The notes below the pieces were generated by a model. It was not told where the DNA came from, ran no database searches, and saw only the letters and a program-made list of their open reading frames with translations. Below, piece by piece: positions 1 through 52,248 of a stretch of 64,000 nt of DNA (within the stretch, counting starts at the first letter, position 1; the number at the start of each line of letters is the position of its first letter). Where the stretch lies: positions 6,140,001 through 6,204,000 of the forward strand of contig OZ076409.1 of the NCBI GenBank assembly GCA_964187785.1, in the 5' to 3' direction. Origin of the DNA: Amphiscolops sp. MND2022 (taxonomy: Eukaryota). A program made the translations under genes and the position numbers.

Positions 1-430
1 AGAAACGAATTCAAGTGACGCGAACGAGAATAAAGCAGACTACATAATCACCAGAGACGAAACAAATTACGCTGACCACGCGACGCACAGTCGAAATGAA
101 AGATTAAATGATTACGTCACTATGAGAAATGAAACTAGTGAAGTGACTAGAACTGAAAAAACTGATTGGCCGAATCCGGCCGTTTCCCCAAAAACTCACA
201 AAAAATCTTCGCCGAATCCGGATGAAGGACTGAAAAACGACAAAAATTTTCCAGAAAGAAACTCAATGAATGAAAATGACGCACAAAATTCTCCAAACAG
301 GGGGGATGATATTGTCGTGCCCGAAATATCAGAAAATGAGGCTAGAAATGAACGTCTGAGCCCTGGAGAAGGGAAATATAAGCTCAGGCCTAATCCTAAC
401 CCAAACTACTCAGAAGACTTCAGATACTAA
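1..430 (+). CDS. 3' end of a Gypsy-like pol ORF (tail downstream of integrase)
   Basis: ORF ends KYKLRPNPNPNYSEDFRY*. The same LRPNP motif ends the pol of the minus-strand Gypsy element near 24000 (LRLRPNPTPKTYP). No catalytic domain lies inside the window. Confidence 0.6.
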   Translation, partial: ETNSSDANENKADYIITRDETNYADHATHSRNERLNDYVTMRNETSEVTRTEKTDWPNPAVSPKTHKKSSPNPDEGLKNDKNFPERNSMNENDAQNSPNRGDDIVVPEISENEARNERLSPGEGKYKLRPNPNPNYSEDFRY

Positions 431-666
431 GAATTGAATTCTTCCCGAAAAAGGGACTTCTCTTCTTTTATCTTTTTGATTTTTCTGGCCCCTCTAGTAT
501 CTTCTGAATAAATAATGGGACAATACAAAGGATCCCTTGCAAAAGGATAAATACGGGACCAAATAGATACAAACAACAAAAAAACAGAAATCAAAGACAA
601 ATGAAAGAATTAATACAACAAAGTCTGTGAATTAGCGTACATAAATACATATGTACAAGTTACTTT

Positions 667-3600
667 TCAGAAGTTGAGGGCGAGAATCACTGGCGACAGA
701 TGAACCAGATGACAAGGATCTTGCACTGCCCATTCGCCTTCTCTCGAAATTTGTTGAGCAGACTTTTCAGGTACAGGAGAAGTTTCCCTAGGATCCAAAC
801 TGACAACGTTCCCTTGAGGGCCTGCAACTGCTACTTTGTGAGAAGACAATAGAGCCTTATAGACTTTCGAACATCCAAATGTATCCACATAATCCCAAGG
901 ATCATATGTAGGGGCAAATGCTGTCCTTCCGAAATCTGATGCAAGCGGAGAGAACTTCGACAAATTTGAATCCTGACTGCAGAACGGGACCGAATCAGAA
1001 ACTCCAGACAAATAACTTTCACCCGGCAACACGACATCGGTAAATCTTCCATGGAGGCCCATAAGACCAATATTACCAAAAGTAACAGAAGGGAATTCCT
1101 CTGCGGGCTGTAATGCACAGGCAACACAATTTGAAGAGGTGGAGGAGGAAGTCAACCCTCATAAGGAACTCGATCAAATCAGCAGATAAATCAGTGAAAT
1201 TGAAGTCAGCTGGATAAGTAATCCGCAAAGGATCTACCAGACCAAAGTATTTTTCACGATAAGAGATTCATCAGCGTCCATGACCCATGACCGTAGAAGG
1301 AAGGTATTATAGAGCATCTCAAAATCCCGCAAGGCAACATCAATTGGACGGCTGAATAGAAAGTAAGGATTGAAAGCTGCCAAACCTTGGACCAAGTGAG
1401 AGTTCAGACACACCTGGCGTAGCACCCCTTCTATCATGTGCTTGATGAAACTGAGTGCCTCCTGAACAAACTCGTTCTCCACTTCACTGATCGTCTTCTG
1501 GACTGTGGCCTTATCAGGATTTTTGCCAACCAGGAGTCCCTCAGCTTTGATTTTACTGGCTGCTGCTACCTTTGAAGAGAGTTCAGTCGGATCAAGAAGT
1601 CCTCAGCTTCCTTGAACTTCCCCTCTGCTGTCTTGAATCCCATGAGGAGGAACCAAGAATTCTCCAAAGGGACAGTGTCAGGGGTGAAACAACGGGAACA
1701 GAGTCGGTATACGAATTGATTAGCTTCACCGAATAGATAGAAGGACGCATCTCGTCGCTGGAGGAGGTTAATTACGAAGCTGGACAAATCTGCAAACACA
1801 ACAGGAAAATGTTCGAAACAGGCAAGAGTGAATCTAAGGATTACAAGAAGTTACTGACAGTCATTGACGATTCGCTGGAAGAACTCAAGCTTGACGGTAA
1901 TAAACTCATCGCAAATGAGTGACCACTCAAAACTCTGCACCTGTAAAACATGAAGGCTTCGTTAATACTCACTAGAAGACCATGGAGTTGGGCAGTCCAA
2001 AAGAGTTTAAATCAACTACACAATGGAACAATTAGGACAGGTAACTCACTCGGCTTCTGACTCCTTGACCCTCTTGTCTAGCTGAGTGGACAGTCAAATA
2101 AGTGCGCACGTTCTTCCATTGATTGACCAGTTCCGTGCACATCGTTGGCAGACTTTTGAGGTCTATTTTGCATGAAGTAATCGCCTGAAACAGAAGAGTG
2201 AGAATGAAATAGCTGCCCCTAATCCTGAACCTGTGAATTACAGCAAGTTCAACACTAACCAGTTGAAGCTCAGGGGACTCTAAAACCCAGTCGTCTGTCT
2301 GAGACCCACCCAGGGAGACCAGGAGGACTTGCGGCACCGAAAAGAAGTCAATTTTCCCAAAGACGCTATAACTTCTTTTATGCATCAGAGAGAACAGCGA
2401 TAAGTGTTCGAAACGAGAACAACTTTGGACTCCACTGGGGAAGTAGCTGCAATGATCAAGGGTGCGTACGAAATCCACGGGACACCCGGAACATGCCACG
2501 ACATCAGCTCTAGTGGAAACCACAGAAAGGAACCGGGACAGTGATCCAAGCTCACCAGTAAGCTGTGATGACGGGAGTTTACTGCGGCATATGAAGACTC
2601 GACACAATTTGTCACACTCTCAGAAGCGCACACTCATGTGCCGATAGGTGCCGAAATCTTCAAACTCCACTGAAAAGCACTGTTCGGACGCTACTACTTG
2701 GGCGATGTCGTCCATTGCGCAAACAAAGATGTGCTGGAATATGGCCTGAAAAGAACATCAATACTTAACATCATACAATATAACGCCCCTCCCTGTCGCT
2801 TAATGTGGATTATACTTACAGTGAGACGTTCTTCCCCCCAGTCGAAATCACAAAGTGTAGATTGGTAGTTCGTGAAGGAACTGATCCTCGCGCACAAATT
2901 ACGCAGTAGAGACAGATCACCGTGTGTTTGCATGTAGTCAGAATTGATGCAGATTTGAGTTTTGGCTCGTGAGTCGGGCGTTACTAATGCAAAGGGACTC
3001 CCTTTGATGAAATCGTCATAGAAAGGAAAGCGCTCCCCTATGTCCACTAACTCAGCATGAATAAATTTCGGTAGATCCTTGGCTAGCTCAATTTTTGTCA
3101 GCTCTTTCCCATTCCGGCCTCGCACCCTATGCTGGATCTTTCCGCTGATGGGGTCAATGCTACGGAGATGTTCATATCTCCACCTTTGATCACGCCTCAG
3201 ATGTTTTTTCGATCTGTGATGCCGTACGATCTCGAAAGTGCCTTTAGTCCTGATGGAGATATTCTTCTTTCAAATGGGGCACCACACCATACAAGGATTA
3301 GGCAGCGGGTCAGCGGGCCCAGAAATGAAGGACCGCGTCCAACCAATTTCGGAGAAAAACTCCTCTCTCATGGGGACCCCCGCTGGATTGTCCCAGGCTT
3401 TCTCTTAGCTTTCTTACGCTGGGGTGCCGTGCTAGTCCTCTTCTCGATTGCTGCTTCCCTGATTTCTGACAGTGTTTCATCAGGGCAACTCATCTCGCTG
3501 GAAGTTCCAGCTTCAACGGACTTGACTGGGGCCCTTGTGGCGGAGGTGGGTTTCCTGGAGACCTCGGCAGTGGATTTCTGGATTGATTCAGTAATCAAAG

Positions 3601-4779
3601 CCATTTCCGCTGCACTGTCCGATTCCTCAAAATTGGTTGTCATGTCCTCTCCAGTTGAAGCGCCAGAAGATCCTGGGATAGGCGGTCCAGAATACAGATC
3701 ACTTTATGTCCCCCCTTCGCTGGTGTCACTATCCATGCGAGGATGGGGAGTTTGGGCTCGTTGCCGGGATCGAAAATGGTCAGTCCGCGACTGTGCAGTT
3801 GTTGGAGCGCCTCTTACTGCTCCTAAAACCATGTTTTCCACAGTCGTGAAAGACTGACTCAGGGTCTCGTTGGTGAGAGTTTTGAGGAGGTGATACAATT
3901 GTGGTTCACTGAAGGCCACGGTAGGGTGTCCTACTGGCAAGGAAAACGGCGGAGTCTCATCAAAAAATTGCTTGAGTATCGCCCTGCTTCTCCCGGATAA
4001 TTCTTGAACGGGAACACCTGTTATGTGCCCTGAAGTTCCTGGTGCCACTCGGAGGACTGTCTCAGTACCGGGGCCTGATTCGTCCCTCCTTCTGTTCCCG
4101 ATTCCGTGTCACCAAATGTGATATTTTGGGTAAGGTGATACCCTAGCCTGCTTATCTCATCTTCGGTTTTCTCTGCCTCGCTCGGCTCAGTTGGGAGTAC
4201 CCCTTGAGTTGTTAATCCAGGTAAGGCTGGAACCTCATATATGGAGGAAGAAGTATCTTCGCCAGCAGCGAGTTGAGTTTCAGAATGTTCTCTAACAAAG
4301 GGGGTTGTAACGGGGACCAATTCAGGCAAGCTGAACTCTGTTGTAGCCGTCACCATAAGAGCCGACTCAAGAGATGTCAAACTACTGGAATGTGCTTCGC
4401 CTTGGCTGACTGGGACTGGGGTACTTCTCCGAACTGGGCTCGCTTTTTCTAAATCTACGGATGCTCGTTCAAGGATCTGTTGGGTTTGCGCCCTCGTGTT
4501 GTCTGTCTGCTCAACCCCTGGAGTTGCGGACCCCTCCTTCGAACGTACAACGTTATCGGCGTACTCGTTAACATCCTCATCACTGCCATCTTCCTTAGAG
4601 GAAGCCTGTTGTTCGGACTGACTTTTCAGCTCAGGGTTTGTGCTGCTATTTTCGGCGGGGTCTTGGACGAAGGCTGGATCTGGTGTCTGTTGATTTTCTT
4701 GGATTCTCTTGGATTCTCTTGGATTCTCTAAATAGAAAGAGATGAATTTTCGCGGTGAGCTTCCTTGGAAAGAATCCAT
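667..4779 (-). pseudogene. Antisense multi-exon gene, hAT-transposase-like (BED/TTF-type zinc finger), disrupted by stops and frameshifts
   Basis: Chain of minus-strand ORFs. Reading near 3195-3285 gives WCPI*KKNISIRTKGTFEIVRHHRSKKH (C-x2-[C]...H-x4-H). Phase-0 GT-AG introns at 2746-2819 and 2185-2259, and probably 1941-2049, join the frames. The exon after the first intron reads CFSVEFEDFGTYRHMSVRF, similar to the hAT catalytic strand. Confidence 0.6.
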
Positions 4780-5854
4780 TAAACCCCATTAGAAATCTTC
4801 CGGAAGTGTTTGAAATGTGAATTAAACGTGTTAGCACGTGCCGAATGACGAAACAGGAAGCGCCTATTGAACAAGTTAGCTCTGATCAAATTATATTAGT
4901 TCAAAGTTTGAAATCCAGACCAACCTGAGTTAGAAGACATTTTCCTGCTGTAGCGTTGTCTTCTGAGAACAGTCCTCAATTGCCTTGGGTGGTTGGGGAA
5001 TAGGACCGAAAGCGGCTGTAGGTGGAGAAAGCCTGAAGAGAGTCTGATGGAGGAATAGCCAGTAACGGGTATAAAGACGAAAGCAACCGGACGTTGTAAT
5101 CAGAGATCCGGATGTGTGAATGGTGTAAATATAACAGTTACAAAAGTAAAAGGAATTGGGATGTAACAGTAGTCGAGTGACAGTAGTCAAAAGACTAAAA
5201 GTTGGAGTTCGTGGCTGAAGAAATTACCAGACTAATATTATATAGTTATTTACATATTTAAAAGTGTACATGGAGTCTGCCAGCGAAATGTACAGAGAAA
5301 TTCTCCACTATTTACAGCTTGTTTAGTTAGTAGCCAGGCACGGCCATTTGCATTATCCTATTTACCGCTTTGTACTTTTATCCTAGTTATCCTGAGTTAG
5401 AATTTCCAGCATTTTAGGCTGTTTTAGCCATTCTTTTTGCCATTTTATTTATTCACTTTTCATTTTATCGATGGGTGCTTCTGATTGGCTAAGGCCATTT
5501 TGAGAAGATTCAGTGACGCGTGCCACTAATTACCGACAAAAAACCCGTTAACTTCCCACTTGAAGTGAAGTTATTTGTTGATAACAGCTCAAAGACTATT
5601 CTCATTGCCACTTGAGAAAGTGATATAAAAGGGGTCACCGCCTGAAATTCAAAAAAGTGATGCCGCTGAAAATTCCATTCAGGAAAAGTTTACGACGACT
5701 CAGGACGATTAACCTATGTATCTACCGCCGACTCGGAAACCCGGAAAAACGTCCTAACTCTGCCTGCGACGGAACTTCGATAAATTCATTCTGTCTCCAA
5801 TTGAATCAGTAACCAGTTGTTCTACCAGCTTCAAAAATCGCTAAAAGTTTTATA

Positions 5855-6639
5855 ATGGAGAAATTTAATCTCTCGAGAAAACTGTTCGACATGGATGGAT
5901 TTGAGTCAAGTGACTCTGGTGACTCTGTTATCTACATATCGAGCAGCGAGGACGAGTACACTGAAGCCTGGGAGACAGATTGCTCCACTGATACAGAGCA
6001 GCTGATAGCCCGCATAGAGAGAGAAGTCACGACTAGTCCTATGCTTATTGGAGGCAGAATTATGACAACTGAGATACCTGAAGAAGACGAAATGGTAGCT
6101 GGGCCAGCACATCTAAGGTGACAGTGGAGATGACGCCAAAGTTGGACCATAAATATTTTGACCAAGAAAGATGCTATGCCCCATCCAAGAAGATTGAAAA
6201 GACGCGAATCGAACTTTGCAGTACAATCTTACCGGTTCTAGAATCACCAATGTCTCCACCGGATCATGAAAGAGAGCCGAGTCAAGATACTCCTTCAGTC
6301 TTACCTGTCACAAGTGGCTTTCACGCTTCCTATCTCATTCAAAATGCAAAGCCTTATGACAACCTGAGCAGACAAAGATGTACCAGCTGTATGGTTTGCG
6401 AAAAAGCAGTAGATGAAATCAAAGAAGAAAGGATCAACTGGTACATGGAGAGGTCAACTCCACGTGACGAACCTGAATTCATCACAAAACTAAGACGAGA
6501 GGCCTATGTCAACGGATTGAATGCAGGTAGTTTGCTCTTTATTGCTCCTGCAGTGTCGCAGGCTGCCGCCTGTGACGAAAATAGTTACACCACAACGGCG
6601 TCCGGACAGGACATAACACCGGGAACACTGCCAATTTAA
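5855..6639 (+). CDS. Small accessory gene (two overlapping ORFs, probably one frameshifted gene): acidic SIM-like N-terminus and a Cys cluster
   Basis: ORFs 5855-6121 and 6118-6639. TATAAAAG near 5624 upstream. AATAAA at 6638-6643 overlaps the stop. Motifs VIYISSSEDE and CTSCMVC. Confidence 0.5.
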
Positions 6640-7780
6640 TAAAACGCAAACAACAAACTTTAGAAACTTGGTTTAATCACGTTTTTCCTTATGTTCATTT
6701 ATCCATGTAGTGTTTATGTATTTTGATAAAGCCAGTATTAGTCTGTTAAAGTTGTACAACTTGGAAATGTCCAAAGCAAGCTATTATGCAATGAGTGCAA
6801 ATAAAATGCGAAAATACTTGATTGTAAGCTGAAGCAACTGTAAAGCAGTATAGGAAACGAGTTCAAGTGATGTACAGTGCTAATCCAAAAGCGTCACTTG
6901 AGCTCGTTGTCCTGGCCAATCATATCGCTTCAATTTGTGAGATTAAAACAATTTTAATATAATGGCGGCCGAATAAGGCCAATTGACTCAACATGTACGC
7001 TTTGTTTCACACATTGGTCAAAAGGCCGGTTTCGGCCTTCTCGTTAAAATATGATGTTGCTCAATATATTTGTACTGGTATTTAACCGTATTACTCAGGA
7101 ACTACTCTAAACGTGTTGCTAGTGTTAAATGAACACTCCCGTGCTGTTTAACGAACTAAACAAACATAGTGCTAACTTGAAGGCCGGACAAGGCTTTTTA
7201 CCCCTTTCCCTTCAGTACTGGATTAATTAATCGGATTTGGCCGTTTCCGGCCTTGTTAGGAAAGTACTTTGTTTTAATAGTGCAGTTTTATTTTAAACAA
7301 GTCAAGCTTGTATTACTTAATTTTGTTCTACCCAGTGCTAAATAACAGACGCGTGGCGACGTACGCTGCATTGACATTCCAATGGGATGCTTTTCACATT
7401 CCGTCAACGAGTATTGGTATTTGTTGACAAAATGATGATGATGTTTTCATAAATATGCTACTTGAAGTTGCGGCTTGTATACCCGCTAGAATGTTATTCG
7501 TTTGATGTTGAGTTCTCAGAAATTATCTGAATGTTAGGAATTTTCCCAATCGGGACTTCACCAACATATGTGCTTTGAAGGCATGTATCTTGTAAACCTA
7601 TTTCTTAACTAGGATTATGTGAGAAATGTGAATGTCACCCACTCATGAGTATATATACTTGAATTTAGCCTGAGTGGGACACAATTCATACTGAATGCAT
7701 CTAGTGAAGATTGTTATACAAACGGTTCCACTGTTATTTTCCGAGTTAAAAATTTCATTGTTCAATTCGGATTATTTTCG

Positions 7781-8364
7781 ATGCCTACCACGAGGAAGCA
7801 GAAAAAAGCTAGAAAGTCAAGAGGAATTGAGATGCTCTCAGATATAGGGAACTTAGACATCATGCTTGGTGAAAATCACTTTGACAGAAATGAGAGATGA
7901 AAGTATTAGTAGTAACCGAGCTAGGAGGACTGGAAGTGCTTCAGGGGACGAAGTCGAAAACAATGATGAAAATAACCATTTGAATATAGGAGATTTTGGT
8001 CCTGGTACTAGTGCCAATCATGGCCGAAACTCAACAGGAGGTAAATCGAGTGCCGAGATCAATAAGTTATCAAGTGAGTTGAACTCAAGATTGTCTAGAG
8101 TACTAGATGAAATGATGAGTAGTGTCAACACCCAAATCCAAAGAGCAATTAGTGATGCGATTAGTGATCAGATCTTACCGCAAATTCAATCCGTCCTAAA
8201 TGCCGGATTGGGACAACCGACACTAAACAAGTGGAACGCTCCGTCCGAGAGACCGGGGATGAATTCCGAGGAAACTTACGGTGAGAAAACTAAGAAAAAC
8301 AATAGAAGTGAGCAGCGCTGTGATTATCAATTGGGTAGTCAACCTAATTTACGCGCTTACGACA
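7781..8364 (+). pseudogene. Gag-like N-terminus encoded within the LTR (frameshifted)
   Basis: ATG 7781 MPTTRKQKKARKSRG... shifts into ORF 7866-8390, which has a helical segment (INKLSSELNSRLSRVLDEMM) and crosses the CGACA terminus. Confidence 0.55.
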
Positions 8365-10006
8365 AGTCTTTTTCAACTCCCATCTCATAGAGTGCGATAA
8401 AAAACGTTCAGCCGTAACAACATCCAATTACAACAAAACTAGTTTCGTAACAAATTCATACATGGAGGTACTTGAATTGTTTAATGCGTGAAATCAGAAA
8501 AAAGCCAAAACTCCTATTTATTAAATTATTGCTTTTTCTTGCAGTTTTGAACGTTTTAGTGGGCAAAATTTCATTGCTACGCTCAAGCATAAAACTCCTT
8601 TTCAATATTTCGACCATCTCTTATTCAATCTCTTTCAGAACGTTTTTCTGTTTGGGTATGAATGTCCACAGAGTTCAATGACAAAAAAGGCAGCGACTTA
8701 GCAAATTATTGTTTCGAAAAATCGGAAGTTTTCAAAAGTTTTTGGTCAAAAGACCAACGCAAACTGGAATTATTGAGTTTAAATATAAAAGAACGGATTC
8801 CAAATTTACCTCACGTTTTCTAGATGAATTTTGCACATTGAGTTTTAAGATGCGAAAAAGGGTGTTTTGATAATGTCAACAGTCAAGACAAAACGCCATT
8901 TCCTCGCTTTTTTGCGTTTTGGAGGCGGAAGTTGGGTAGTTTGAATCTAGCCAATACCGAATTTCTCATCTTTTAAATTTGAACTGTCCCAGTAGCAGTT
9001 TCTGATACAACACATACAACCTGAAGTATCTCGTATATCACGCATAGAATTGTGATTATTTCACTTCCGGTTGTTATATGATTTTACAAACTCAGCTTAG
9101 TTTCTGGGAAGCGTCTCAAAGGTGTTTTTATCGGCTAGCTGAGAACCTTTTCCTGAAGAAACTAGAAGATAAAAAAGGGCCAATTGTTCGGTTTTTTTTC
9201 GAGCTTGTGAAATCTTTTGCATTTTTTTAAAGTTTCAAGCAAGATCTGAATAATTCGATATTTTGCAAACACCTGGAAATTCCAAAGTCTATATCTTTCT
9301 GAATCTTCGACACTTTGTGACTTCAAAAATTGAAGGAATATTGTTTTCAAGACTTCAGCGGGTGGCCATGGTGGGCTTTTCAAGGGTTGTTATAGCTTCA
9401 AATAAGAACATTGTCGCTTGGCTTGCAGAATAGGAGGAAAAGTGTCGACATAGTTTTTCCTTCAATTTAAATTTTTTTCGAACTTACCTGGATCAAGTTT
9501 CGAAGTCTGTCAATTTCCAGCTCGAGCTCTTGTTTTTTCTCGGAGCGTTCATCGCAAGTTTTTTGAGTGGCCAAGCACTCCTGAACTTTCTTCCTCATGA
9601 GCTGTTTTTCTTCACAGAAAACTCCATTTGGTTTAGCCAGCTCAATGTTGGCCTCAGCGAGTTCGCTAGAAGACATAGATCAAGTTTTCAATTCTGTTGC
9701 AGAAATGCTGACTCGTGAATCATTGCAAAGTTTTGGGTTGAAGATTTGATGCTAACTTTTTGCACTTCTGATTTTAGAAAAATTTTTTAAACATGGGCTA
9801 ATGGACAGTTTCTTCTGACTGACGCTTGAAAAAAGCCTAAAAATCGGGAAATATAAAAGGAAAAGTCACCCTGATAACCATAAGTTTAGTTCCGAAAACT
9901 TCAACTTCCTTTTTTCGGTAACCGGACATTACGCCCGATAATTATTTATACATACAACAATCTTTCAGGTTATTGGGCGTTATGTGCTCATACAAGAAGT
10001 GAACAA

Positions 10007-12179: not shown

Positions 12180-13540
12180 TGACGGTACCAACAATCTTCC
12201 CATTGTTTAGGGGTTTAACAATCTAGTCCACAAAGTCTATCGAGAGTTTGACAAAAATTGAACAAAAATAATGAAGATTCCAGACATTTTTCATTTGAAA
12301 AACTGCATTCATCTCTCTACTAAGCATACTGGACAACACATTCTTTCCTTGTTGACCAATTCCAACATTCCAATCTCCGGAGTTTGTTCAAAATTTTGAA
12401 AAAAAACTGCATAAAACTTTGAAAATTGAAAAACTTTTGGATTTTTGTCACTTTCGGAGTCAATTTGAGACTTTTTCAAAAAACCGAAACTATCTCATCC
12501 TTAAAGACTACCGGACAAAGATTTGCTACGGTGGTGAACGTATTAAACATTCCAATCCACGGAGTCTGTGGAAATCATAACAAAATTGCATAAAAACATT
12601 ACAATTTGGAATTTTTTGGTTTTTTGTCATTTTTAGTGCCATTTTGAGATAATTTTCATTTAGAAAATTGCGTTCATTTCTTCGGAAAAACCTACTGGAC
12701 TATTACTCTTTTCTTTCTTACGCGTCTCAACATTCCAATCTACGAAGTCTGTCGAAAATTTGACAAAAATTGCATGAAAATTTTGAAAAATGGTATGTTC
12801 TAGGATTTTTGACATTTTCAGTGTCAATTTAACACCTTTTTCATTTAGAAAATAGCAATTATCGTTTCGGAAAAGCCTACGAGACAGCAAATGCGTGCCA
12901 TGTTGACCGTTTTCAACTTTCTAATTAACGAAGCCTATCGAAAATTAGACAAAATTGCTTAAAGTTTTTGAAAATCGGGAAATTTGGTGTTTTTGTTCTT
13001 TTTGGTGCCATTTTGAGGTATTTTTCATTTAGAAAACTGCATTAACTTCTTCGGAAAAACCTACTGGACTCTTTCTTTGTTTACGCTTCTCAACGTTCCA
13101 ATCCAGGAAGTCTGTCGAAAATTTGACAAGAATTGCATAAAAATTTTGCGAAAAGGAAAGTTTTAGGTTTTTTGTCAATTTCGGTGCCAATTTGAGACCT
13201 TTATCATTTGGAAAATAGCAATTATATTTCCAAGAAAGCCTACTGGACAGCGAATAAGTGCCATGTTGAGCTTTTGCAGCTATCTAATTAACGAAGTCTA
13301 TCGAAAATTTGACAAAAATTGCATAAAATCGTAAAAATTCAGACAATTCTGCAGTTTTTATCACTTTTGGGGTCAAATTTCTTTCACAAAACCGCTTTTA
13401 TCTCTTCATAGAAGACTATTGGACAACGAATTCGTGCCTTGTTGAACGTTTTCAACATTCTAGTTCGCGGTGTCTAAAAATTGACAAAAATTGAATAAAA
13501 ACAGTAAAAATTGAGAAACTTTTGTCATTTTCGGGGTCAT
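12180..13540. repeat. Degenerate satellite-like tandem array, about 180-bp period
   Basis: ACATTC(C/T)A and GTCT(A/G)TCGAAAATTTGACAAAAATTGCAT recur near 12365, 12548, 12730, 12915, 13093, 13280 and 13456. Confidence 0.8.
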
Positions 13541-17226: not shown

Positions 17227-18454
17227 AGTCGATACGCTCCTGGTTGCGAGAACTAGAACCCCGCAGAGCGTTTCATTCGTCTGGACGAGACATAAATTGT
17301 TGAGTCAGAATCGCTGAATAATTTTTATTTTCACTCATCTCCGCTTGTAACCTTACGATTTGATTGTTCATTTCCGTTTGAGAAATTAGATTATTCCCAA
17401 TTTGTTCAATTTAAGATGAATTTGTGTCTGAATCAACGTTTGCGGAGTTAATTTGTTCAGAATCCTTTCTTGGATGGGTTTCGGATGAACTTTGAGTGAG
17501 GTAGGAATTTTTGATGGTTTTTCTACTTCTGTACTTCTGGGTTTTGGAGGAGAATTTGAACTCAAGCACTTTGACAAAATTTCGTTTTTCTTAAAAGAGT
17601 TGAATTTGGTAATGACAGAAAGCAAAAAATAGTCTAATCTAGTTTATAAGCTACTGTTTAATGTAGAGCGAATCAAGTTAATGAGCAGCTTCAGAGCTTC
17701 TTGTGTTGCGTCCAATTTTCAATACTGTCTCGTGCAGGTGACAAAACGCAATTCTTGCACATTTCACGTCATCTTTGACTGGTGCGCAAAGGTGATAATC
17801 ATCACTTTCCTTCATTTTATCAACTTCAATAACAAAGTATCATACTTACATAGCAGCGGATTAGTATAATTGTTCGAAATATAATCCAAACACTTCACTG
17901 AGAATGAATGGGTGAAAGTGCAAAAGTGATTGAATGATTCCTGATGGATTTATGATGCGAAATAACACTTGTGATGAAGTTAAGATGGACGGCATTAAGA
18001 AAATGGAATGACAGATTTGGGATGGATAAATGATGCACGATGAAATATGGATGAAATTGGATAGAGATTCTAGTCTTAGAGACATTGACCTTATTGCCCT
18101 GTTTTCCGTCCATTTTCCATCCATAGCTGTTAACTGACAGTAAAATCATCCATTTCACGTCAGAGAGCATGAATGTGTTGAAACACTGATGACAGTATGT
18201 ATTTGAACACTATCGCTTTTTTGATGAACGTCGTAATGGACGACGCGCGATCAGGGGCTCAAGTTCATAATATCTATAAAACTTGTATGTAAACTCAAGA
18301 CTCAGGGGAAGGGTGAATATATAATTCACGTAGGGTGGCCCTCGACCATGTATCTTTTTATAAGGCTTCATATTGCCCATAAGTAAGTATTTCTAACATA
18401 CATGTACATTAGAAATAAAACATAGGTCTATATTTCCATCAAGCTGGTATTACA
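17227..18454 (-). mobile_element. Gypsy LTR, family A, about 1.23 kb, flanked by CGTAT direct repeats
   Basis: Termini (A)GTCG...TACA. CGTAT at 17222-17226 and 18455-18459. Colinear with 33245-34273. Its right end is homologous to the right end of LTR B. Confidence 0.8.
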
Positions 18455-23650: not shown

Positions 23651-26600
23651 GAGATCCTGCTTTTCTTTCAAGTTGACCTGAGATTGGAAGAATTCGAGAT
23701 AGGTTTTGCTTGAATATATATGCGTGTCTAGAACTGAAAGTGACATATACGATTCTCTCGTGGAACAAATGCGGTGGTATAAATCTATCGTATCTCTGCC
23801 TAGTATTTGAGTTGCATGTTACATGATGTATTTTGGATATTTCGTCCACGTGGTTATTCTAGTCACCTTGTTTTGGTTTATGAGTATATTTTTCGCATTG
23901 ATCGTGTTCAGTTCAACTGCAGGGCAGCATTTGTGTTGCAAGAGAATTTCCAGCAGTGGTGATTCCGTGAATTAGAAAGTTAGGATAGGTTTTTGGTGTA
24001 GGATTAGGACGGAGTCGTAACTGGATGTGGTTTCTAGAAACTATCGGCAGAGAGGTTTGATGATCGTCAATTGGAGTATCTGGGTTACAGCGAGGTGGTT
24101 ACGATGAGTCATCCGTTCGTCTTGAATCTATCCGATTTCTTCCCTCGGTGGTGGATTGATGATTTTTGGGTGGATCGAATCAAACGTGTGGCGATGGAGG
24201 TGGTTCGCAATCTCTATTAACTTCGGAGTCACGATTTAGGCTATTTCTTCGAGGAAACCTATTTGAGGGCCTGTAACGTTTCAAGTCACAGCGGCGGAAC
24301 TGTCTTTTAAGATGCAAGAATGAATTTTTTCCCATGTATTAGTGGTTTTGTTTCCATCGAATTCCCGTGTTTGTTCAAGATTGTTGTTGTCGAAGATATC
24401 GGAATTTTCGACGCGTTCAGTATCTGGATATAAGCAGTTAGTTTTTACGTCAAGGTCATCGATAAGGTACTCGGGGTTCAATAGGCGTATTCTCATGCGG
24501 TGTACGCATTGTGTTCGGTGTGTGTTCATCTTCCTAATAATGCAGTTGCCGTCGGACAGCACTTTCATTATTTTGTAAGGCCCTTTCCAGTGGAAAATTT
24601 GAAACTCCTCTTTGAACGATTGAGGATCTTACTTAGGGTCGAGAAGGAACCAAAATCGATACTTTTCAGGGTTTAGGCTCTGATTTTTTGGTCGGTCGTA
24701 ATTTGTTTTTTACTTGTCGTTAGCGTTTATGATGTTTTCTGAGTTTCGACGGAAGTTTGCGTTTATTTTATCCAGTATTTGGTTTACTTCAGTGTATTTT
24801 GTGTTCACTCGTTTGTTCGGGTGCGAGTATTGAATGTCAAGTGCGTTATAAAAAATTCTGCCGTGGAAATTTTCTTTTGGTGAACACTTGATTGATGTAT
24901 GATATGTTACAATATCAACAAATCGGTCCCAATGAGGTTTGTCTTTGTTAACGTTGATTTTCTTCAGTTTATCGTGACTAGGTTCAACCATACCGATGGT
25001 TTAGGCGGGTTTTACGGTGGCGTGTGAAGTTTTTATGCGAGCAGTTTCCATCACTTGCTTCTTGAGTTCAGCAGAGTGAACACTGTGCTTTTGTCGTTCA
25101 TCAGATAGTTCGGGAAATAGGCGTGTTTCAGGAGCATTGGCATGAGGGCTTCTACTACCAAGTTTGTATCTGGTTTGCGTAGTGGGACTGCAAACGGATA
25201 TCGCGAGAAACGGTCATTCGTGTTAGGATGTGCCTGAAACCGTTTCAAGATAGGAGAGGCCCTATTAAACCAATTTCCAAGGGACCCTCTGGCCCATTTG
25301 ACGGGTCGTAAATTTTCTGGAGCGGTGGTCTCAGTAGTGAATTGTTGACCCTTTTTGAGTGTGCGCAAATTTTGCAACCGTCTATCATTTGCTGAACTTT
25401 GATTGCTAAGTTTGGTGCGTAATACCGCTTTGAAAGCTCAAAAAGCATTTTCTTGGATCCAGAGTGTCCCTGCTTAGGGCTACTATGCAGTCCCCTGATT
25501 AAGACCAACATGCATTTTTAGGTACTACGATTTGTTTATAAGTTTCGAGACCGGTATGATCGAAAAATTTTCTGAAGGACGCCGTTGATGACCTCGAGGC
25601 GTTTGATGTGTTTGTGTAATTTTGGAAAAGTTGGCTCATAACGTTGACTGGGTGATTGAGGGTATGTTTCAACACTTTGTAAAATGTATATCGTTCGTTG
25701 GATGTCAGTGTTATCTTTTTGGACGACTACAAAAAGAACGTCCCTTTCGATGGACAATATGTTTGAAACCGTTGTACTTGACGATGTCGTTTGAATGATA
25801 TTGTAGTGTTTGTTGCCGTTGTGTTGTAGCAGTAGATCACGCTTGGAGATTTCAAGATTTTTGGATGGGTAGAAATTCATCCTATTCTCATCGTCAACGG
25901 TGACGAAGTTGTTATTTATCTTGTTCTCATCAGACATTTTTTGCATTGCTTTCTCATCTTTCCTGCGTGTTTTAGCATTGCAATGCCAGGAGGGAAAATT
26001 CTGGACCGTCTACTTCCTGTTGAAGTGTTTTTGATGCAATGTCAATTTCAATATGGTAGACTGGTATTGAATCATCCAATTTCAGATGTACTTTTTCTTC
26101 AGGCCTTGTCTAGTCGAGAGGGGTTAAATATGGAATTAAAATGAAGTTGAACTGTAATGTTTGGTCACAAAAACTCCACAATGACGGGGGAATAATTTTT
26201 GCTTGAAAAAATTTAGTTGAGGCTTTGTTGTCACTCAATTTCATCAAATGCGGAGCGCATTGCCCAAGATTCTTTCGCATCTCCATCGAGACGTTTGGCC
26301 TCTTCGAAATTGCTTTGAGCCAAAGGAGACTGAGGCGTATGTTTTCAGGTTACCTAAGTTTTTTCACTATAATCCTCTGAGTAAAACCTAGCCTGCTGTG
26401 CGTTCGCTAGCGTCGCACAAAATGCCTAGTTTTTTGTCTGGCAGAGCATTTTTAACGCGACTTTAGTTGCTTTTTTCAACTTCGTTTTTTTTTTCAAATA
26501 TCGTGTATCCGTGACTTGTTCGAGTTCAAACGGTGTGTCTTCTTTGTTCAGGGTGTGTATGATTGCAGTTTGTTTGCTAATCTGGGAATGTAAGATCATT

Positions 26601-29600
26601 AAAAATTGACAAAGCAGAGATAACGTTGAAATGCTTTGCCAAAATTTGGTCTTTGTAGAGTTTTTTTCAAGTAGTCAGTAACTGGTTTTTCAATGGTTTT
26701 CCAATAGTAATATTCCTATTTCTCTGTTTGAAATTGTTCGTCCTGGATACTCAATCTTTTGTTGACCGAAATGACACTTGCTCAGTTTGAGTCCTGCTTT
26801 GTGCAGTTGATCAAAGACGAGTTCTTCAGAAGTATGTGCCTCAACGCCGATGTCGTCTACGTACCAAGCGCAACGATCTGTATATAGGAGTGAGTCTAAA
26901 TATTCATGTACTAAGCTAGGAAAAGCTGGGAAGGGGCGGTTTAGTACAAGGTCTAGTCTTAAGAATGCAAAGGTGCGCGACTCGAAAACGAAGCACAACA
27001 GTTGGATGGTTTTTCATCGTCCATTGGAACACAATGGAAGACATGGGAGCAGTCTAATTTACAAAAAGTTTGTTACCGGCCATATCTTGAGCTGCGTCTG
27101 CAATTGTTGTGACTGGATGTTTGATTTTTTGATTTAATTTATTTTTTCAAAAATTCAACTTTTCTTCAACCAATTTGTGAAGGGGTAAAATTTCTTTATT
27201 TCTCGAGATCCTGCTTTTCTTTCAAGTTGACCTGAGATTGGAAGAATTCGAGTTAGGTTTTGCTTGAATATTTATGCGTGTCTAGAATTGAAAGTGACAT
27301 ATACGATTCTCTCGTGGAACAAATGCGGTGGTATAAATCTATCGTATCTCTGCCTAGTATTTGAGTTGCATGTTACATGATGTATTTTGGATATTTCGTC
27401 CACGTGGTTATTCTAGTCACCTTGTTTTGGTTTATGAGTATATTTTTCGCATTGATCGTGTTCAGTTCAACTACAGGGCAGCATTTGTGTTGCAAGAGAA
27501 TTTCCAGCAGTGGTGATCCCGTGAATTAGAAAGTTAGGATAGGTTTTTGGTGTAGGATTAGGACGGAGTCGTATCTGGATGTGGTTTCTAGAAACTATCG
27601 GCGGAGAGGTTTGATGATCGTCAATTGGAGTATCTGGGTTACAGCGAGGTGGTTACGATGAGTCATCCGTTCGTCTTGAATCTATCCGATTTCTTCCCTC
27701 GGTGATGGATTGATGATTTTTGGGTGGATCGAATCAAACGTGTGGCGATGGAGGTGGTTCGCAATCTCTACTAACTTCGGAGTCAGGATCTAGGCTATTT
27801 CTTCGAGGAGACCTAATTGAGGGCCTGTAACGTTTCAAGTCAGAGCGGCGGAACTGTCTTTTAAGATGCAGGAATGAATTTTTTCCCATGTATTAGTGGT
27901 TTTGTTTCCATCGAACTCCCGTGTTTGTTCAAGATTGTTGTTATCGAAGATATCGAAATTTTCGACGCGTTCAGTATCTGGATATAAGCAGTTAGTTTTT
28001 ACATCAAGGTCATCGATAAGGTACTCGGGGTTCAATAGGCGTATTCTCATGCGGTGTACGCATTGTGTTCGGTGTGTGTTCATCTTCCTAATAATGCGGT
28101 TGCCGTCGGACAGCACTTTCATTATTTTGTAAGGCCCTTTCCAGTGGAAAACTTGAAACTCCTCTTTGAACGATTGAGGATCTTACTTAGGGTCGAGAAG
28201 GAATCAAAATCGATACTTTTCAGGGTTTAGGCTATGATTTTTTGGTCGGTCGTATTATGTTTTTTACTTGTCGTTAGCGTTTATGATGTTTTCTGAGTTT
28301 CGACGGAAGTTTGCGTTTATTTTATCCAGTATTTGGTTTACTTCAGTGTATTTTGTGTTCACTAGCTTGTTTGGGTGCGAGTATTGAATGTCAAGTGCGT
28401 TATAAGAAATTCTGCCGTGGAATTTTTTTTGGTGAACACTTGATTGATGCATGATATGTTACAATATCAACAAATTGGTCCCAATGAGGTTTGTCTTTGT
28501 TGACGTTAATTTTCATCAGTTTATCGTGACTAGGTTCAACCATACCGATGGTTTAGGCGGGTTTTACGGTGGCGTGTGAAGTTTTTATGCCAGCAGTTTC
28601 CATCACTTGCTTCTTGAGTTCAGCAGAGTAAACACTGTGGTTTTGTCGGTCATCAGATGTTTCGGGAAATAGGCGTGTTTCAGGAGCATTGACATGAGGG
28701 CTTTTACTACCAAGTTTGTATCTGGTTTGCGCTGTGGGACTGCTAACAGATATCGCGAGAAACGGTCATTCTTGTTAGGATGTGCCTGAAACCGTTTCAA
28801 GATAGGAGAGGCCCTATTAAACAATTTCCAAAAGACCCTCTGTCCCATTTGACGGGTCGTAAATTTTCTGGAGCGGTGGTCTCAGTAGTGAATTGTTGAC
28901 ACTTTTTGAGTGTGCGCAAGTTTTGCAACCGTCTATCATTTGCTGAACTTTGATTGCTAAGTTTGGTGAGTAATACCGCTTTGAAAGCTCAAAAAGCATT
29001 TTCTTGGATCCGGATCCAGGGTGTCCCTGCTTAGGGCTACTATGCAGTCCCCTGATTAAGACCAGTATGCATTTTTAGGTACTACGATTTGTTTATAAGT
29101 TTCGAGACCGGTATGATCGAAAAATTTTCCGAAGGACGCCGTTGATGACCTCGAGGCGTTTGATGTGTTTGTGTAATTTTGGAAAAGTTGGCTCATAACG
29201 TTGACTGGGTGATTGAGGGTATGTTTCAACACTTTGTAAAATGTATATCGTTCGTTGGATGTCAGTGTTATCTTTTTGGACGACTACAAAATGAACGTCC
29301 CTTTCGATGGACAATATGTTTAAAACCGTTGTACTTGACGATGTCGTTTGGATGATATTGTAGTGTTTGTTGCCGTTGTGTTGTAGCAGTAGATCACGCT
29401 TGGAGATTTCAAGATTTTTGGATGGGTAGAAATTCATTCAACGGTGACGAGGTTGTTATTTATCTTGTTCTCATCAGACATTTTTTGCATTGCTTTCTCA
29501 TCTTTCCTGCGTGTTTTTAGCATTGAAATGCCAGGAGGGAAAAATTCTGGATCGTCTACTTCCTGTTTAAGTGTTTTTGATGCAATGTCAATTTCAATAT

Positions 29601-30748
29601 GGTAGACTGGTATTGAATCTTCAATTTCAGATGTACTTTTTCTTCAGGCCTTGTCTAGTCGAGAGGGGTTAAATATGGAGTTAAAATGAAGTTGAACAGT
29701 AATGTATGGTCACAAAAATTCCACAATGACGGGGGAATAAGTTTTGCTTGAAAAAATCTAGTTGAGGCTTTGTTGTCACTCAATTTCATCAAATGCGGAG
29801 CGCATTGCCCAAGATTCTTTCGCATCCACCGAGACGTTTGGCCTCTTCGAAATTTCTTTGAGCCAAAGGAGACTGAGGCGTGTGTTTTCAGGTTACCTAA
29901 GTTTTTTCACTATAATCCTCTATGAGTAAAACCTAGCCTGCTGTGCGTGCGCTAGCGTCGCACATAATGCCTAGTTTTTTGTCTGGCAGGGGCATTTTTA
30001 ACGCGACTTTAGTTGCTTTTTTCAACTCCGTTTATTTCAAATATCGTGACCCGTCACTCGTTCGAGTTCAAACTGTGTGTCTTCTTTGTTCAGGGTGTGT
30101 ATGATTGCAGTTTTGTTTGCTAATCTGGGAATGTAAGATCATTAAAAATTGACAAAGCAGAGATAACGTTGAAATGCTTTGCCAAAATTTGGTCTTTGTA
30201 GAGTTTTTTTCAAATAGTCAGTAACTGGTTTTTCAATGGTTTTCCAATAGTAATATTCCTATTTCTCTGTTTGAAATTGTTCGTCCTGGATACTCAATCT
30301 TTTGTTGACCGAAATGACAATTGCTCAGTTTGAGTCCTGCTTTGTGGAGTTGTTCAAAGACGAGTTCTTCAGAAGTATGTGCCTCAACGCCGATGTCGTC
30401 TACGTACCAAGCGCAACGATCTGCATATAGGAGTGAGTCTAAATATTCTTGTACTAAGCTAGTAAAAGCTGGGAGCGGGCTGTTTAGTACGTGGTCTAGT
30501 CTTAAGAATGCAAATCTGCGCGACTCGAAATAGAAGCACAACAATTGGATGGTTTTTCATCGTCCATTGGAACACAATGGAAGGCATGGGAGCAGTCTAA
30601 CTTACGAAAAGTTTGTTACCGGCCATATGTTGAGCTGCGTCTGCAATTGTTGTGACTGGATGTTTGATTGTTTGATTTAATTTATTTTTTCAAAAATTCA
30701 ACTTTCCTTCAACCGATTTGTGAAGGGGTAAAATTTCTCTATTTCTCG
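23651..30748. repeat. Tandem duplication of about 3.55 kb (23651-27204 and 27205-30748) covering RT-RH-IN
   Basis: GAGATCCTGCTTTTC starts at 23651 and 27205. Near-identical ORF pairs (24281/27835, 26690/30233). Confidence 0.95.
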
Positions 30749-33457
30749 GAGTGCAAGAGTTCAATCGAAAGTTCGTCGTTCTATTTTGTCCAATTTGTCT
30801 GGATTACTGCATGTTTCTGGTGTGGGGTACAAGTCAGTGTGTTTTATTTCTGGCTTTACACACAGTTGGTTTTCTACTGCTTCTGCTTCTTCAGGAAACT
30901 TGGAAGTTAACTTGAGGTGTTCTGGCGGCATTGGTGTTTTGTTAGCTGCCTGGTGAGAGGTTGGAATTCGAAAAAATGCTATCTTTTCCTTTGCTTCTAG
31001 TGTGAAAGTGTGCTCATTAAGAATAGTGACTTGAATAATCGTTTTTCTTTCCGTTAAATGGGGTGTTGCTTGTGAGACGAGCAGACAGGTTTTACGCATA
31101 ATTGCAGGTGTACCTTCCACTGTACCAGTTGTTTGCGTTATGTCGGAAGTACAGTAAACTGGTAACATTATTTGATGGTGCGGCGGAATGACAGTTTTAT
31201 AGCAAGATTTAATTCGATAAGGCTGGTTTTAATTTTTTGTTTTGCTGTTGCCGCACTTGCATAGGCATGTGGTTCGGAAAGTGAACTAGGTGGTTTACAG
31301 AAAACTTTTCAAAAATTCACATTGGAATCGGAATAGTACTCATTGTTGGAACTACTAGAAAAGTTTCCTCAAATACTTTTCCTGCAATAACGAACCTGAG
31401 AAGCACTTGTTTTCTAGTTGGTACTTGTTTTCTAATTGGAGATTACCGTTTAAAAGTTCTACTTTATAAGTTGGTGGGTGGAGTTCACTCGAAAATGCTT
31501 CAGGGTGAGCGTGTGAAACTTGCCTTAATTTCGCTTCGGAAAGGGCGTTGTCAGTGGCGCCAGGTTCTAAAAGACCTTGGTTTTCGTATTGAAGTCTTAA
31601 AGATATTAAAGATACGTATAAAGTCTTATGTTTTTTGTTCAAATGCAATGTAGGACAAACGATTTTATACTTTTACCTTAGACAAGGTTTACGATGGTTT
31701 ATACTAATCTGGTTTGTGGAGTCGTGGTCTGCTTTTGTGAAGTCATTGGGGAGATGATAGGTCGTGTGAAGGTTTTCATCTGATTTCCACCGTCTGCTTG
31801 CCTCAAGGCGTTTGAGTGGAATTTTATCGTGTTTTCATCGTCATCAACTGAGAGCGACTGGAAGTGGTTGAATGTCATCGCTGTCTCATTTGCGATCTGT
31901 TTTGCATCGTATCGTATCTTGGGTCAGGGTGAGGTTTTGTGGTGGTTTGCATCCCGAGTAGACTGCCATGTCTTTGTTGGGCTTTGATGTCGGTACGTCA
32001 ATTTGTATTTGTGATGTACTGAAAATCCTTGTCGTCATTGGAGTGATCTTCAGTGTTGCAGCTAGTTGAATATTTGAGTTGGTTAGAAGAACGTTGTTGT
32101 TTTTTGAGATCTCGTCTGCGATCCCTGTTTTCGGTGTTTTCTTCTATCGTGCATGGGACTTATCCGAATGGCGTGCTGGTTTAGCTTCTGGCAGGTAGCA
32201 ATCTTTGGCTGAGTGACCTGTGTCTCCGCATTTTTCGCACACTAACTTCGGGTCCCGTATTTGGGTTTTCCCTCGGGAGTTTCTGCGGTTTAATGCCGTC
32301 CTTTTTGACAGTGTTAATGTTCGGGGGTGTTACTTCGGGTCGTATTTGGGTTTTCCCTTCGGGAGTTTCTGCGGTTTGATGGCGTCCTATTTGACACTGT
32401 TACTGTTCCAGTCACGAATTCTCGAGCGGCATTCTTGTTTGCAGTGGCCTGTTTTTCCGCAAAAGAAACCTTGTCAGTCGAACTTCTTTTTCCCGGTTGT
32501 TTGTGGTTGCGGTTTATTTCTGATGAATTCTCGTCCCGAGCCGACTGAAATTTGGTTGAATGGTTGTGCGGTTATAGCTGGTTGGAGGAGATGTTGGTAC
32601 TGGTACTTCCGCTTTAAGTAGGCTTTGATTTCCTCTGATGTGCAGTCTTCCTTATTCGCCATTTCAAGTTCCCGTTTAACCTCTACAGGCAGTTTGCCAA
32701 ATAAAAACCTCCAAATGTGCTTCTATGCCTCTTCACCGAATGCCTGTTTCGCCGTTATCTTGAGACTTTTCAGGAAATCACCCAAGGTCTCATTGCATTT
32801 GTATTTTGTCACTTCCTTCATGTCTTCATTACCGAATTTTGCGAGCATTTCCGTCAATGTGGTCATGGAGGTGATAGAAACTATTTCCCAATGTTCTTTG
32901 GCTTCATCTCGTACGAGGCTTTGGAAGGGGTGTATCTTGTTTTCTTCCGTTATCCTTAGGGCGAATGGACGAAAATGATTCAGGAGCTAATGTTCAAATT
33001 CGCTGATTTGGTCTTTATGTCCGCAGAAAAATATCAAAACAATGGGTTTGGAGAAGTTTTGTGATGGATTTAGGTGGTTGATTGGATTTATCGTGGCAGT
33101 TCATGTATGGCAGTCAGGAGTTGGTTTGTGACAAGAGACCCCGATGGGGTGCGAAGCGGTTCTTTTAATTCGTCATCGCTATCGTTTTGCATGGTTCTGT
33201 TAGTTGGAGCCATAGCCCGGGTTCTGTTGACTCCCGTCACTGAGGTCGATGCGCTCCTGGTTTCATTTCTCTGGACGACAGATAACTTGTTGAGTCAGAG
33301 TCGCTAATATACTTTTAATCTCACTCATCTCGGCTTGTAACCTTATGATTTGGTTGTTCGTTTCCGTTTCAGAATTAAGACTTTTTCCAATTTGATGAAA
33401 TTCAGATGAATATGAGTCTGAATCTACGTTTGAGGCGTTAATTTGTTGAGAATCCAT
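23913..33457 (-). pseudogene. Decayed Ty3/Gypsy gag-pol (gag-PR-RT-RH-IN order)
   Basis: Zinc knuckle CEKCGDTGHSAKDC (32198-32239). Protease remnant LLEPGA (~31560). RT YVDD (~30395 and ~26855). RNase H CDAS (~29955 and ~26410). Integrase H-H-C-C (GHSG...CKIC) and DRFSRY. Many stops and frameshifts. Confidence 0.92.
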
Positions 33458-46579: not shown

Positions 46580-46785
46580 TTATCTGCCATGGGCGCCGGC
46601 GGCTGGTGCGTTGGAGGATTGTTGTTGGTTGCTGAGGGCTGCGATGTATTGGGCATACATGGCTGTGTAGAACTCGGGGTTGGAGCCCTGAGCTTGACCT
46701 GGGTTGGCGCCCGCCGAGCTGTTGGGGGCTCCTGAGCCGGCGGCTCCTCCGGGTCCGAACGCACCTGGCTGCTGACTCGGGTAAC
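46580..46785 (-). CDS. RRM RNA-binding protein gene, terminal coding exon
   Basis: Acceptor TTTAG, phase 1. GYPSQQPGAFG...PEFYTAMYAQYIAALSNQQQ...GAHGR*. Confidence 0.85.
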
Positions 46786-52195: not shown

Positions 52196-52248
52196 GATAC
52201 TAGACAGTTGCCCTCTTATAAAAGGAAGGAAGGGAGCTAGTCACGAAC

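What the first reader, a model, noticed from the sequence alone, without database searches (positions are those of the whole stretch)
5620..6645. Second accessory mini-gene with a PML-like SUMO-interacting motif
Seen: TATA box, ORF pair and AATAAA form a self-contained unit divergent from the antisense gene. The N-terminus has DSVIYISSSEDE and a later CTSCMVC cluster. Established: a hydrophobic core followed by Ser/acidic residues is the phospho-SIM pattern (PML VVVISSSEDSD), and SUMO is used in transcriptional TE silencing in animals. Inference: candidate TE-encoded modulator of SUMO-dependent silencing.
Basis: partly seen in the sequence, partly recalled or inferred. Interest (0 to 1): 0.7.

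Follow-up and report, generated by a model that had tools for sequence, protein, structure and literature searches.

The report
Retrotransposon accessory gene with SUMO-binding motif
This is a broken copy of a single, unnamed 260-residue gene found in well over a thousand related copies, likely carried by a retrotransposon, whose family has kept a textbook SUMO-binding-type motif across lineages only 22-35% alike, so it likely helps the element interfere with the host's SUMO-dependent silencing.

Summary
The two ORFs are one ~260-aa gene broken by a frameshift near 6100-6120: 63 of 120 listed relatives are single ORFs of 245-270 aa, and the closest map onto both frames. This copy is a decayed pseudogene. 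The motif is the strong part: [VIL][VIL]x[VIL]-S-S-acidic is kept in 24 of 36 lineage representatives (28 with a looser pattern), as 14 different cores on both sides of the tree, an island in variable flanks; shuffles give 0.06, an acidic control protein 0 of 120. One clade lost the core. Only the CxxC of CTSCMVC is conserved; the C-terminal domain has no significant Pfam or fold match. AATAAA 6638 is probably copy-specific. The gene is head-to-head with a high-copy BED-finger, hAT-like gene, between a pol-like end and a gag-like start, so it is likely an LTR-retrotransposon accessory gene. SUMO binding, expression and any effect on silencing are untested. Best reading: a phospho-SIM adaptor countering SUMO-dependent silencing (0.4).

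The parts
5624..5630 (+). TATA-box consensus, about 230 nt upstream of the start codon
   Evidence: sequence; function untested
5781..5837 (+). non-coding leader segment conserved with a distant relative (L001 465-525); pyrimidine-rich and containing a shared CAG, possibly a splice acceptor (inference)
   Evidence: local score 46 vs 22.4 +/- 3.4, 0 of 500 shuffles
5855..6121 (+). ORF-A: N-terminal third of the gene; start codon matches the family start
5921..5956 (+). phospho-SIM-type motif (core VIYI at 5927-5938, then SSSEDE)
   Evidence: conserved in 24-28 of 36 lineage representatives, 29 of 33 tree rows
6100..6121 (+). region of the frameshift that splits this copy
   Evidence: tblastn of intact natural relatives switches from frame 2 to frame 1 here
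6130..6639 (+). ORF-B: rest of the same gene; basic patch, conserved Cys, S/T-P-x-S-P-P, and C-terminal domain
6322..6636 (+). conserved C-terminal domain: H-x-Q, CxxC-G, two predicted helices, G-x-S-Q-A-A-A-C-D-G; possible metal site (inference)
   Evidence: columns at 33-36 of 36; AlphaFold helices at pLDDT >90; no significant fold match
6800..6805 (+). AATAAA, likelier poly(A) signal than the one at 6638 (inference)
4780..5854 (.). head-to-head promoter region: minus-strand TATA-like box 5239-5244, CCAAT-like box near 5485
   Evidence: sequence; 5224-5394 aligns with L001 55-199, 0 of 500 shuffles
667..4779 (-). divergent partner gene, frameshifted here: long acidic N-terminus, CxxC...H...H (BED-like) finger near 3290-3200, then hAT/ZBED-like region (lead only)
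   Evidence: 162 related clusters; Atlas hAT-clan hits at 0.78-0.82
2..430 (+). end of a reading frame resembling a gypsy pol C-terminus (LRPNP motif)
   Evidence: 7 of 16 identical, pairwise E 0.003 to the pol end of the integrase-bearing element at 23.6-33.2 kb; weak
6967..7252 (.). four palindromic GGCC-N6-GGC[CT] boxes (6967, 7024, 7182, 7239); candidate protein-binding sites (inference)
   Evidence: 0 of 2000 simulations reach two
7783..8364 (+). gag-like N-terminus that stops abruptly, possibly the end of a 3' LTR (inference, partly recalled)
   Evidence: no Pfam match, no match to the other element's gag

Best explanation
The locus is a frameshifted copy of one conserved ~260-aa gene, likely an accessory gene of a gypsy-type LTR retrotransposon, whose intact product is predicted to be a largely disordered nuclear adaptor that likely binds SUMO through its N-terminal phospho-SIM and would thereby blunt SUMO-dependent silencing of its own element. 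Shown: single gene in relatives, high copy number, motif conservation, head-to-head layout with a BED-finger gene. Inferred: CK2 phosphorylates the serines and raises SUMO affinity; the adaptor is co-expressed from the shared promoter with the BED-finger, hAT-like partner, which would supply DNA specificity (perhaps at the GGCC-N6-GGCC boxes); at the element the SIM would occupy SUMOylated chromatin proteins and compete with SIM-bearing repressors such as SETDB1/MCAF1. Odds by step: one gene 0.98; TE accessory gene 0.9 (LTR type 0.75); functional SIM 0.75; anti-silencing direction 0.4 overall.
For: One gene. High copy: listed clusters sum to 1,494 member sequences, partner about 1,600. Motif: strict 24 of 36, relaxed 28 of 36 at <70% identity, 9 and 12 of 16 at <50%; shuffle means 0.06 and 0.24; control 0 and 1 of 120. 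V/I/L at the three core columns 29 of 36 each, the two Ser 34 and 33, the next Asp 31, while the 13 columns before reach at most 21 and the 15 after at most 22. 14 different cores with a free x position, on both sides of the tree, full-length identity 22% minimum and 35% median. Predicted disordered context (pLDDT <50 at 24-34). Literature definition met. Basic patch before the first conserved Cys in 24 of 36. Promoter-side non-coding conservation in L001. Precedents: SUMO-SIM step in TE silencing, viral SIM antagonists ICP0 and ORF61 (PMC8430037, passages), TE anti-silencing VANC (PMC5735166, abstract).
Against: No binding, expression or functional data. One clade (P0277, P0335/P0298, P0503; P0306 looks alike but was not in the tree) lacks the hydrophobic core yet has multi-member clusters and keeps S-S-D/E, so the core is dispensable in some lineages. 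No RING or other enzymatic domain explains how silencing would be undone. The close clade has only one SIM. The patterns were set after seeing the alignments, and shuffles ignore shared descent. The element's RT, integrase and LTR pair are outside the window. Co-travel with the partner rests on this window, similar copy numbers and 15 shared contig lengths among 118 and 161, which large contigs could partly give by chance.
Confidence: 0.4

Rival explanations
1. The SIM is real but serves delivery or cell-state control, not anti-silencing: it steers the element's complex to SUMO-rich nuclear sites, or makes the protein a small motif hub (SIM, proline-directed sites, cyclin-docking-like RxLF) that adjusts the cell cycle for transposition.
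For: HPV L2 uses one conserved SIM to reach PML bodies (PMC8430037, passages). S/T-P-x-S-P-P/L in 27 of 34 representatives; RxLF-like in 10 of 34 (motif meanings recalled).
Against: RxLF is confined to the close clade; only its Phe is general (31 of 36). A separate promoter suits a regulator better than a particle component (inference).
Confidence: 0.2
2. The SIM recruits repression: with the BED-finger partner it brings SUMO-dependent co-repressors to the element as a self-limiting brake.
For: Host repressors SetDB1 and Wde use SIMs the same way; the Atlas names two of the partner's look-alike clusters 'E3 SUMO-protein ligase ZBED1-like' (automatic names, scores 0.79).
Against: The family reached more than a thousand copies with the gene kept intact; no conserved SUMO-acceptor consensus in the partner's first exon (best 7 and 12 of 35).
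Confidence: 0.15
3. The motif is not a SIM but a CK2 phospho-acidic docking site for another reader (for example a BRCT or similar domain), the hydrophobic residues being secondary.
For: The S-S-D/E part is more conserved than the core (34, 33, 31 versus 29 of 36) and survives in the clade that lost the core; two members have Pro at core position 1.
Against: The core varies only within V/I/L at exactly the SIM spacing in 14 variants with a free third position, which is the SIM signature.
Confidence: 0.2
4. The two-gene cassette is not part of the retrotransposon but a hAT-related DNA element (transposase-like gene plus accessory gene, as VANDAL carries VANC) nested in it; this concerns the carrier and is compatible with any of the functions above.
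For: The partner's only leads are hAT/ZBED-clan clusters and it appears spliced (inference).
Against: No terminal inverted repeats or target duplication above chance around the cassette; it begins about 240 nt after the pol-like stop and is followed by a gag-like start.
Confidence: 0.15

Closest known systems
Phospho-SIMs of PML and Daxx
   Same: Core [VIL][VIL]x[VIL] followed by CK2-type serines and acids in a predicted disordered region (PMC9371903, passages; PMC4276917, passages).
   Different: Here in an unnamed high-copy TE-type protein with no TRIM/RING or helical-bundle domain; binding and phosphorylation untested.
[quoted passage not shown]
   Same: Long pol-3'LTR region with an antisense, transposase-like (TRP28) gene of suspected regulatory role and its own promoter (PMC11963269, passages; PMC7264820, part 1 of 3).
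   Different: Partner is BED/hAT-like, not TRP28 (no PF04195 hit); a second, sense gene shares a head-to-head promoter; the passages read mention no SIM.
VANC anti-silencing proteins of Arabidopsis VANDAL transposons
   Same: TE-encoded accessory factor proposed to act on its own family through repeated non-coding motifs (PMC5735166, abstract).
   Different: Plant DNA transposon acting on DNA methylation; no sequence link found; here the route would be SUMO and DNA binding would be delegated to a partner.
Viral SIM-bearing antagonists (HSV-1 ICP0, VZV ORF61) and HPV L2
   Same: Parasite protein that engages host SUMO through SIMs (PMC8430037, passages).
   Different: No RING finger and usually one SIM, so not a STUbL.
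Spin-doc zinc finger (PF18658)
   Same: CxxC followed by a helix; 14 of 115 members match weakly, best E 2.5e-5.
   Different: The two His ligands are absent; the domain continues into a second helix and a G-x-SQAAACDG motif.

Membership tests
phospho-SIM (parallel type) | core [VIL]-[VIL]-x-[VIL] | tested here: met
   VIYI in the window; V/I/L in 29 of 36 at each core column; definition
phospho-SIM (parallel type) | C-terminal Ser/acidic tail with CK2-type sites | tested here: met
   SSSEDE; Ser 34 and 33, Asp 31 of 36
phospho-SIM (parallel type) | lies in a disordered region | tested here: met
   prediction only: pLDDT <50, no secondary structure at 24-34
phospho-SIM (parallel type) | binds SUMO, more strongly when phosphorylated | not testable with these tools
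   needs a binding assay
SUMO-targeted ubiquitin ligase (RNF4/ICP0 type) | RING domain | tested here: not met
   five conserved Cys/His without RING spacing; no RING hit in 115 members
SUMO-targeted ubiquitin ligase (RNF4/ICP0 type) | several SIMs | tested here: inconclusive
   one in the close clade; a second hydrophobic-S-S-acidic stretch about 20 residues on in the P0250/P0483/P0489 clades
Spin-doc/BED C2H2 zinc finger | CxxC | tested here: met
   35 and 36 of 36
Spin-doc/BED C2H2 zinc finger | two His ligands on the following helix | tested here: not met
   no conserved His after the CxxC; Tyr 33 of 36 at the matching place
Ty3/gypsy LTR retrotransposon (carrier) | RT and integrase in the same element | not testable with these tools
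   window starts after them; no genome held
Ty3/gypsy LTR retrotransposon (carrier) | pol-type C-terminus upstream, PPT and LTR downstream | tested here: inconclusive
   LRPNP end shared with an integrase-bearing element, pairwise E 0.003; no clear PPT and no second LTR copy in the window
hAT DNA transposon (carrier) | terminal inverted repeats with target duplication | tested here: not met
   3 near-matches of 11 nt versus 7 in shuffles, none with a duplication; only 431-720 against 6640-7790 was searched
hAT DNA transposon (carrier) | hAT transposase homology of the partner gene | tested here: inconclusive
   Atlas scores 0.78-0.82, all hAT/ZBED clan, lead only; zf-BED in 1 of 35 at E 0.11; no PDB hit
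Retand-type antisense aORF | TRP28 (PF04195) domain | tested here: not met
   no hit for either gene
VANC-type anti-silencing factor | sequence-specific loss of silencing marks on its own TE family | not testable with these tools
   needs expression and chromatin data

The most novel reading that the evidence does not exclude
A lineage of animal LTR retrotransposons carries a two-gene counter-silencing module on one bidirectional promoter: a captured hAT-derived BED-finger protein that recognises palindromic GGCC-N6-GGCC boxes in the element's own non-coding DNA, and a phospho-SIM adaptor that intercepts the SUMO-to-SETDB1 step of heterochromatin formation: an animal, retrotransposon counterpart of VANC built on motif mimicry, which could help explain very high LTR loads.
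Probability: 0.2. Interest if true: 0.88.

Novelty: new variant of a known kind. Interest (0 to 1): 0.62.

Why it matters
The best-known TE-encoded anti-silencing factors are from plant DNA transposons, and extra ORFs of LTR elements mostly have no assigned function. A retrotransposon family that has kept a phospho-SIM across lineages near 25% identity gives a concrete, cheaply testable handle on whether transposons target the SUMO step of silencing as herpesviruses do. The protein family has no Pfam family, name or fold match. Four full-text searches listed no paper whose title, abstract start or read passages describe such a gene; the library lacks most subscription journals.

Tried and rejected
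No genome is held for this window, so copies, flanks, LTR ends and dN/dS could not be examined. No sequencing run was listed; that is no evidence on expression. No second copy of 1-8500 in the window. Viral contigs: no relative for three queries; prokaryote genomes: none; metagenome contigs: one locus, L001. Pfam on the window ORFs and representatives: nothing significant. PDB by sequence: 0 hits for the family, one compositional hit at E 1.3 for the partner. Foldseek PDB and viral: no E <= 0.001; VIA best Z 5.8 over 46 residues, a generic helical hairpin; this does not show the fold is new. First AlphaFold model too weak to search (pLDDT 53.5). Atlas for P0007: best 0.88, piggyBac-associated clusters at 18-42% share, judged compositional. 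Rfam 1-10000: none. tRNA: none. The bacterial promoter scan is not relevant. Rejected: two separate mini-genes; CTSCMVC as a three-Cys cluster; AATAAA 6638 as the family signal; RxLF cyclin docking as a family-wide feature (10 of 34); the IKxE SUMO-acceptor consensus (10 of 34, inside a predicted helix) as more than a lead; a solo LTR from 6744 to 8364 with a 4-nt duplication (four such matches in 430-7790, chance level). Earlier-findings look-ups returned nothing. The host is not identified: a recalled resemblance to acoel flatworm elements was not tested (PMC9911081, passages, only shows that such genomes are LTR-rich). Also read without bearing: PMC6338049 and PMC12958612 (passages); some searches were listings.

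Full report
What is there. The window shows TATAAA at 5624, ORF-A at 5855-6121 and ORF-B at 6130-6639, AATAAA at 6638 and 6800, and a minus-strand gene from 4779 with a TATA-like box at 5239-5244. No genome was available, so the work rests on protein relatives and one outside locus.

One gene, decayed here. ORF-B found 141 relatives among 153 candidates; the 120 listed all come from source 'ena' and carry no name or Pfam domain. 63 of the 120 are 245-270 aa, and the 31 aligned cover both window ORFs, starting at the same Met or, for P0001, 12 residues in. P0001, P0005 and P0006 map in frame 2 to about 6109-6118 and in frame 1 from 6106. The window copy also departs from the family at 3 of 29 near-invariant ORF-B columns and 1 of 7 in ORF-A and ends one residue short; its AATAAA at 6638 spans the stop and a second TAA, so it is probably copy-specific. 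The listed clusters sum to 1,494 member sequences.

Depth of the family. A profile search gave 362 hits among 50%-identity representatives (best 150 listed), a second search 306 (best 120 listed), and a metagenome scan one locus, L001. Of 408 fetched proteins matching the profile, 199 were full length, reducing to 36, 16 and 9 representatives at 70, 50 and 40% identity. Some relatives sit on short contigs of other assemblies, so the family is probably not confined to one genome (inference).

The motif. The published SIM core is [V/I/L]-[V/I/L]-X-[V/I/L], in disordered regions, often with C-terminal acids or CK2 serines, as in PML V556-I559 with S560-562 and S565 (PMC9371903, passages). A strict version occurs in the first 60 residues of 24 of 36 representatives and a relaxed one in 28 (9 and 12 of 16 at 50%); 2 of the 36 lack the N-terminus. 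Shuffles of the first 100 residues give 0.06 and 0.24 on average, never more than 2 in 1000 rounds; the acidic, Ser-rich first 450 residues of 120 partner proteins give 0 and 1. The patterns were chosen after seeing the alignments and shuffles ignore descent, so the better test is the column profile: V/I/L 29 of 36 at each core position, Ser 34 and 33, Asp 31, against at most 21 in the 13 columns before and 22 in the 15 after. On a tree built from the C-terminal part only (33 rows; P0041 and P0516 dropped as truncated, P0306 for lack of an anchor; a slightly wider pattern), 29 rows carry the motif in 14 different cores such as VIYI, IICL, IIWI, LVII and LINI, on both sides of the midpoint, at 22% minimum and 35% median identity; the tree needs two losses, one of them a supported three-row clade that keeps S-S-D/E. 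That is what selection on a SIM should look like, and also shows that some lineages do without the core.

The rest of the protein. Five possible metal ligands are kept at 34-36 of 36: a Cys after a basic patch, a His, the CxxC and the Cys of G-x-SQAAACDG; the first Cys of CTSCMVC is not. S/T-P-x-S-P-P/L is in 27 of 34, an RxLF-like stretch in 10 of 34, three or more K/R before the first Cys in 24 of 36, 8 not parsed. AlphaFold gave pLDDT 53.5 for the full protein and 64.6 for the C-terminal 156 residues with two confident helices. Fold searches found nothing significant. Pfam gave a weak Spin-doc finger match in 14 of 115 members, best E 2.5e-5, but the His pair is missing.

The setting. The divergent gene has 162 relatives of 336 aa or more, many of 660-730 aa, with a near-invariant CxxC...H...H finger; the window copy shifts frame twice. 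Its only family leads are hAT/ZBED-clan clusters at 0.78-0.82; Pfam and PDB add little. About 1,600 listed members (hand-copied, 121 rather than 120 entries) and 15 contig lengths shared between 118 and 161 fit co-travel but do not prove it. L001, a distant relative (40% identity over 77 residues), shares non-coding segments at 5781-5837 and 5224-5394 (0 of 500 shuffles each). Upstream, 2-430 ends in an LRPNP motif like the pol end of the integrase-bearing element at 23.6-33.2 kb (weak). Downstream lie four GGCC-N6-GGC[CT] boxes (similar ones at 168 and 5332, five more elsewhere in the window) and a gag-like start that stops at 8364 (label partly recalled). No inverted termini were found. An LTR-retrotransposon carrier is therefore likely (0.75), not shown. 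The host is unidentified.

Mechanism. SUMO-SIM contacts recruit SetDB1/Wde in Drosophila transposon silencing and SETDB1 via KAP1 in mammals (10.1101/533091, passages); herpesvirus ICP0 and ORF61 use SIMs against SUMO-based defence and HPV L2 uses one for targeting (PMC8430037, passages). A disordered, enzyme-less, single-SIM protein co-promoted with a DNA-binding-type partner is most simply an adaptor or competitor at the element's own chromatin. I put anti-silencing at 0.4, targeting or cell-state control at 0.2, a non-SUMO phospho-docking site at 0.2 and a self-imposed brake at 0.15.

Comparison and novelty. It works like VANC (PMC5735166, abstract) or a RING-less viral SIM protein, and sits like the extra ORFs of plant Retand and Grande elements, but belongs to none of these families by the tests run. 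Searches listed nothing describing it. Verdict: new variant of a known kind, interest 0.62; the sequence case for a selected SIM is strong, the function is open. No supplementary files were consulted.

Noticed in passing
window 6967, 7024, 7182, 7239 (also 168, 5332): Palindromic GGCC-N6-GGC[CT] boxes, all with the same spacing, clustered in the element's non-coding DNA; 0 of 2000 simulations reach two in the region. Possible sites for a dimeric DNA-binding protein.
   Followed up: partly
window 667-4779 (-): High-copy divergent gene with a BED-like finger and hAT-like region; a captured, possibly inactive transposase derivative inside a retroelement would merit its own study.
   Followed up: partly
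window 5660-5812 (+) and 5781-5837: A 50-codon upstream ORF overlaps a leader segment conserved in L001; the segment looks like a splice acceptor, which would remove the upstream ATG.
   Followed up: partly
window 7783-8364 (+); 17270-18301 and 33260-34276 (-): Gag-like N-termini seem to lie inside LTR-like repeats: the 17270/33260 repeat pair (86% identical) both carry the start of a gag-like frame, and 7783-8364 stops abruptly in the same way.
   Followed up: partly
window 23651-30748 (-): Decayed gypsy element with integrase hits and an internal 3.55-kb tandem duplication at 96% identity covering RT to pol end.
   Followed up: no
proteins P0250, P0483, P0489 clades: A second hydrophobic-S-S-acidic stretch about 20 residues after the first, possibly a tandem second SIM.
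   Followed up: no
proteins P0277, P0298/P0335, P0503, P0519: A multi-member clade that replaced the SIM core but kept S-S-D/E; a natural negative control.
   Followed up: partly
window about 46300-56400 (-): Short Gly/Gln/Tyr-rich frames that look like exons of a host RNA-binding-type gene with repeat-filled introns (label is a guess).
   Followed up: no
window 12280-13520, 40527-41212, 44500-49100: Tandem arrays with 185-nt and 172-nt units and a dispersed repeat family.
   Followed up: no
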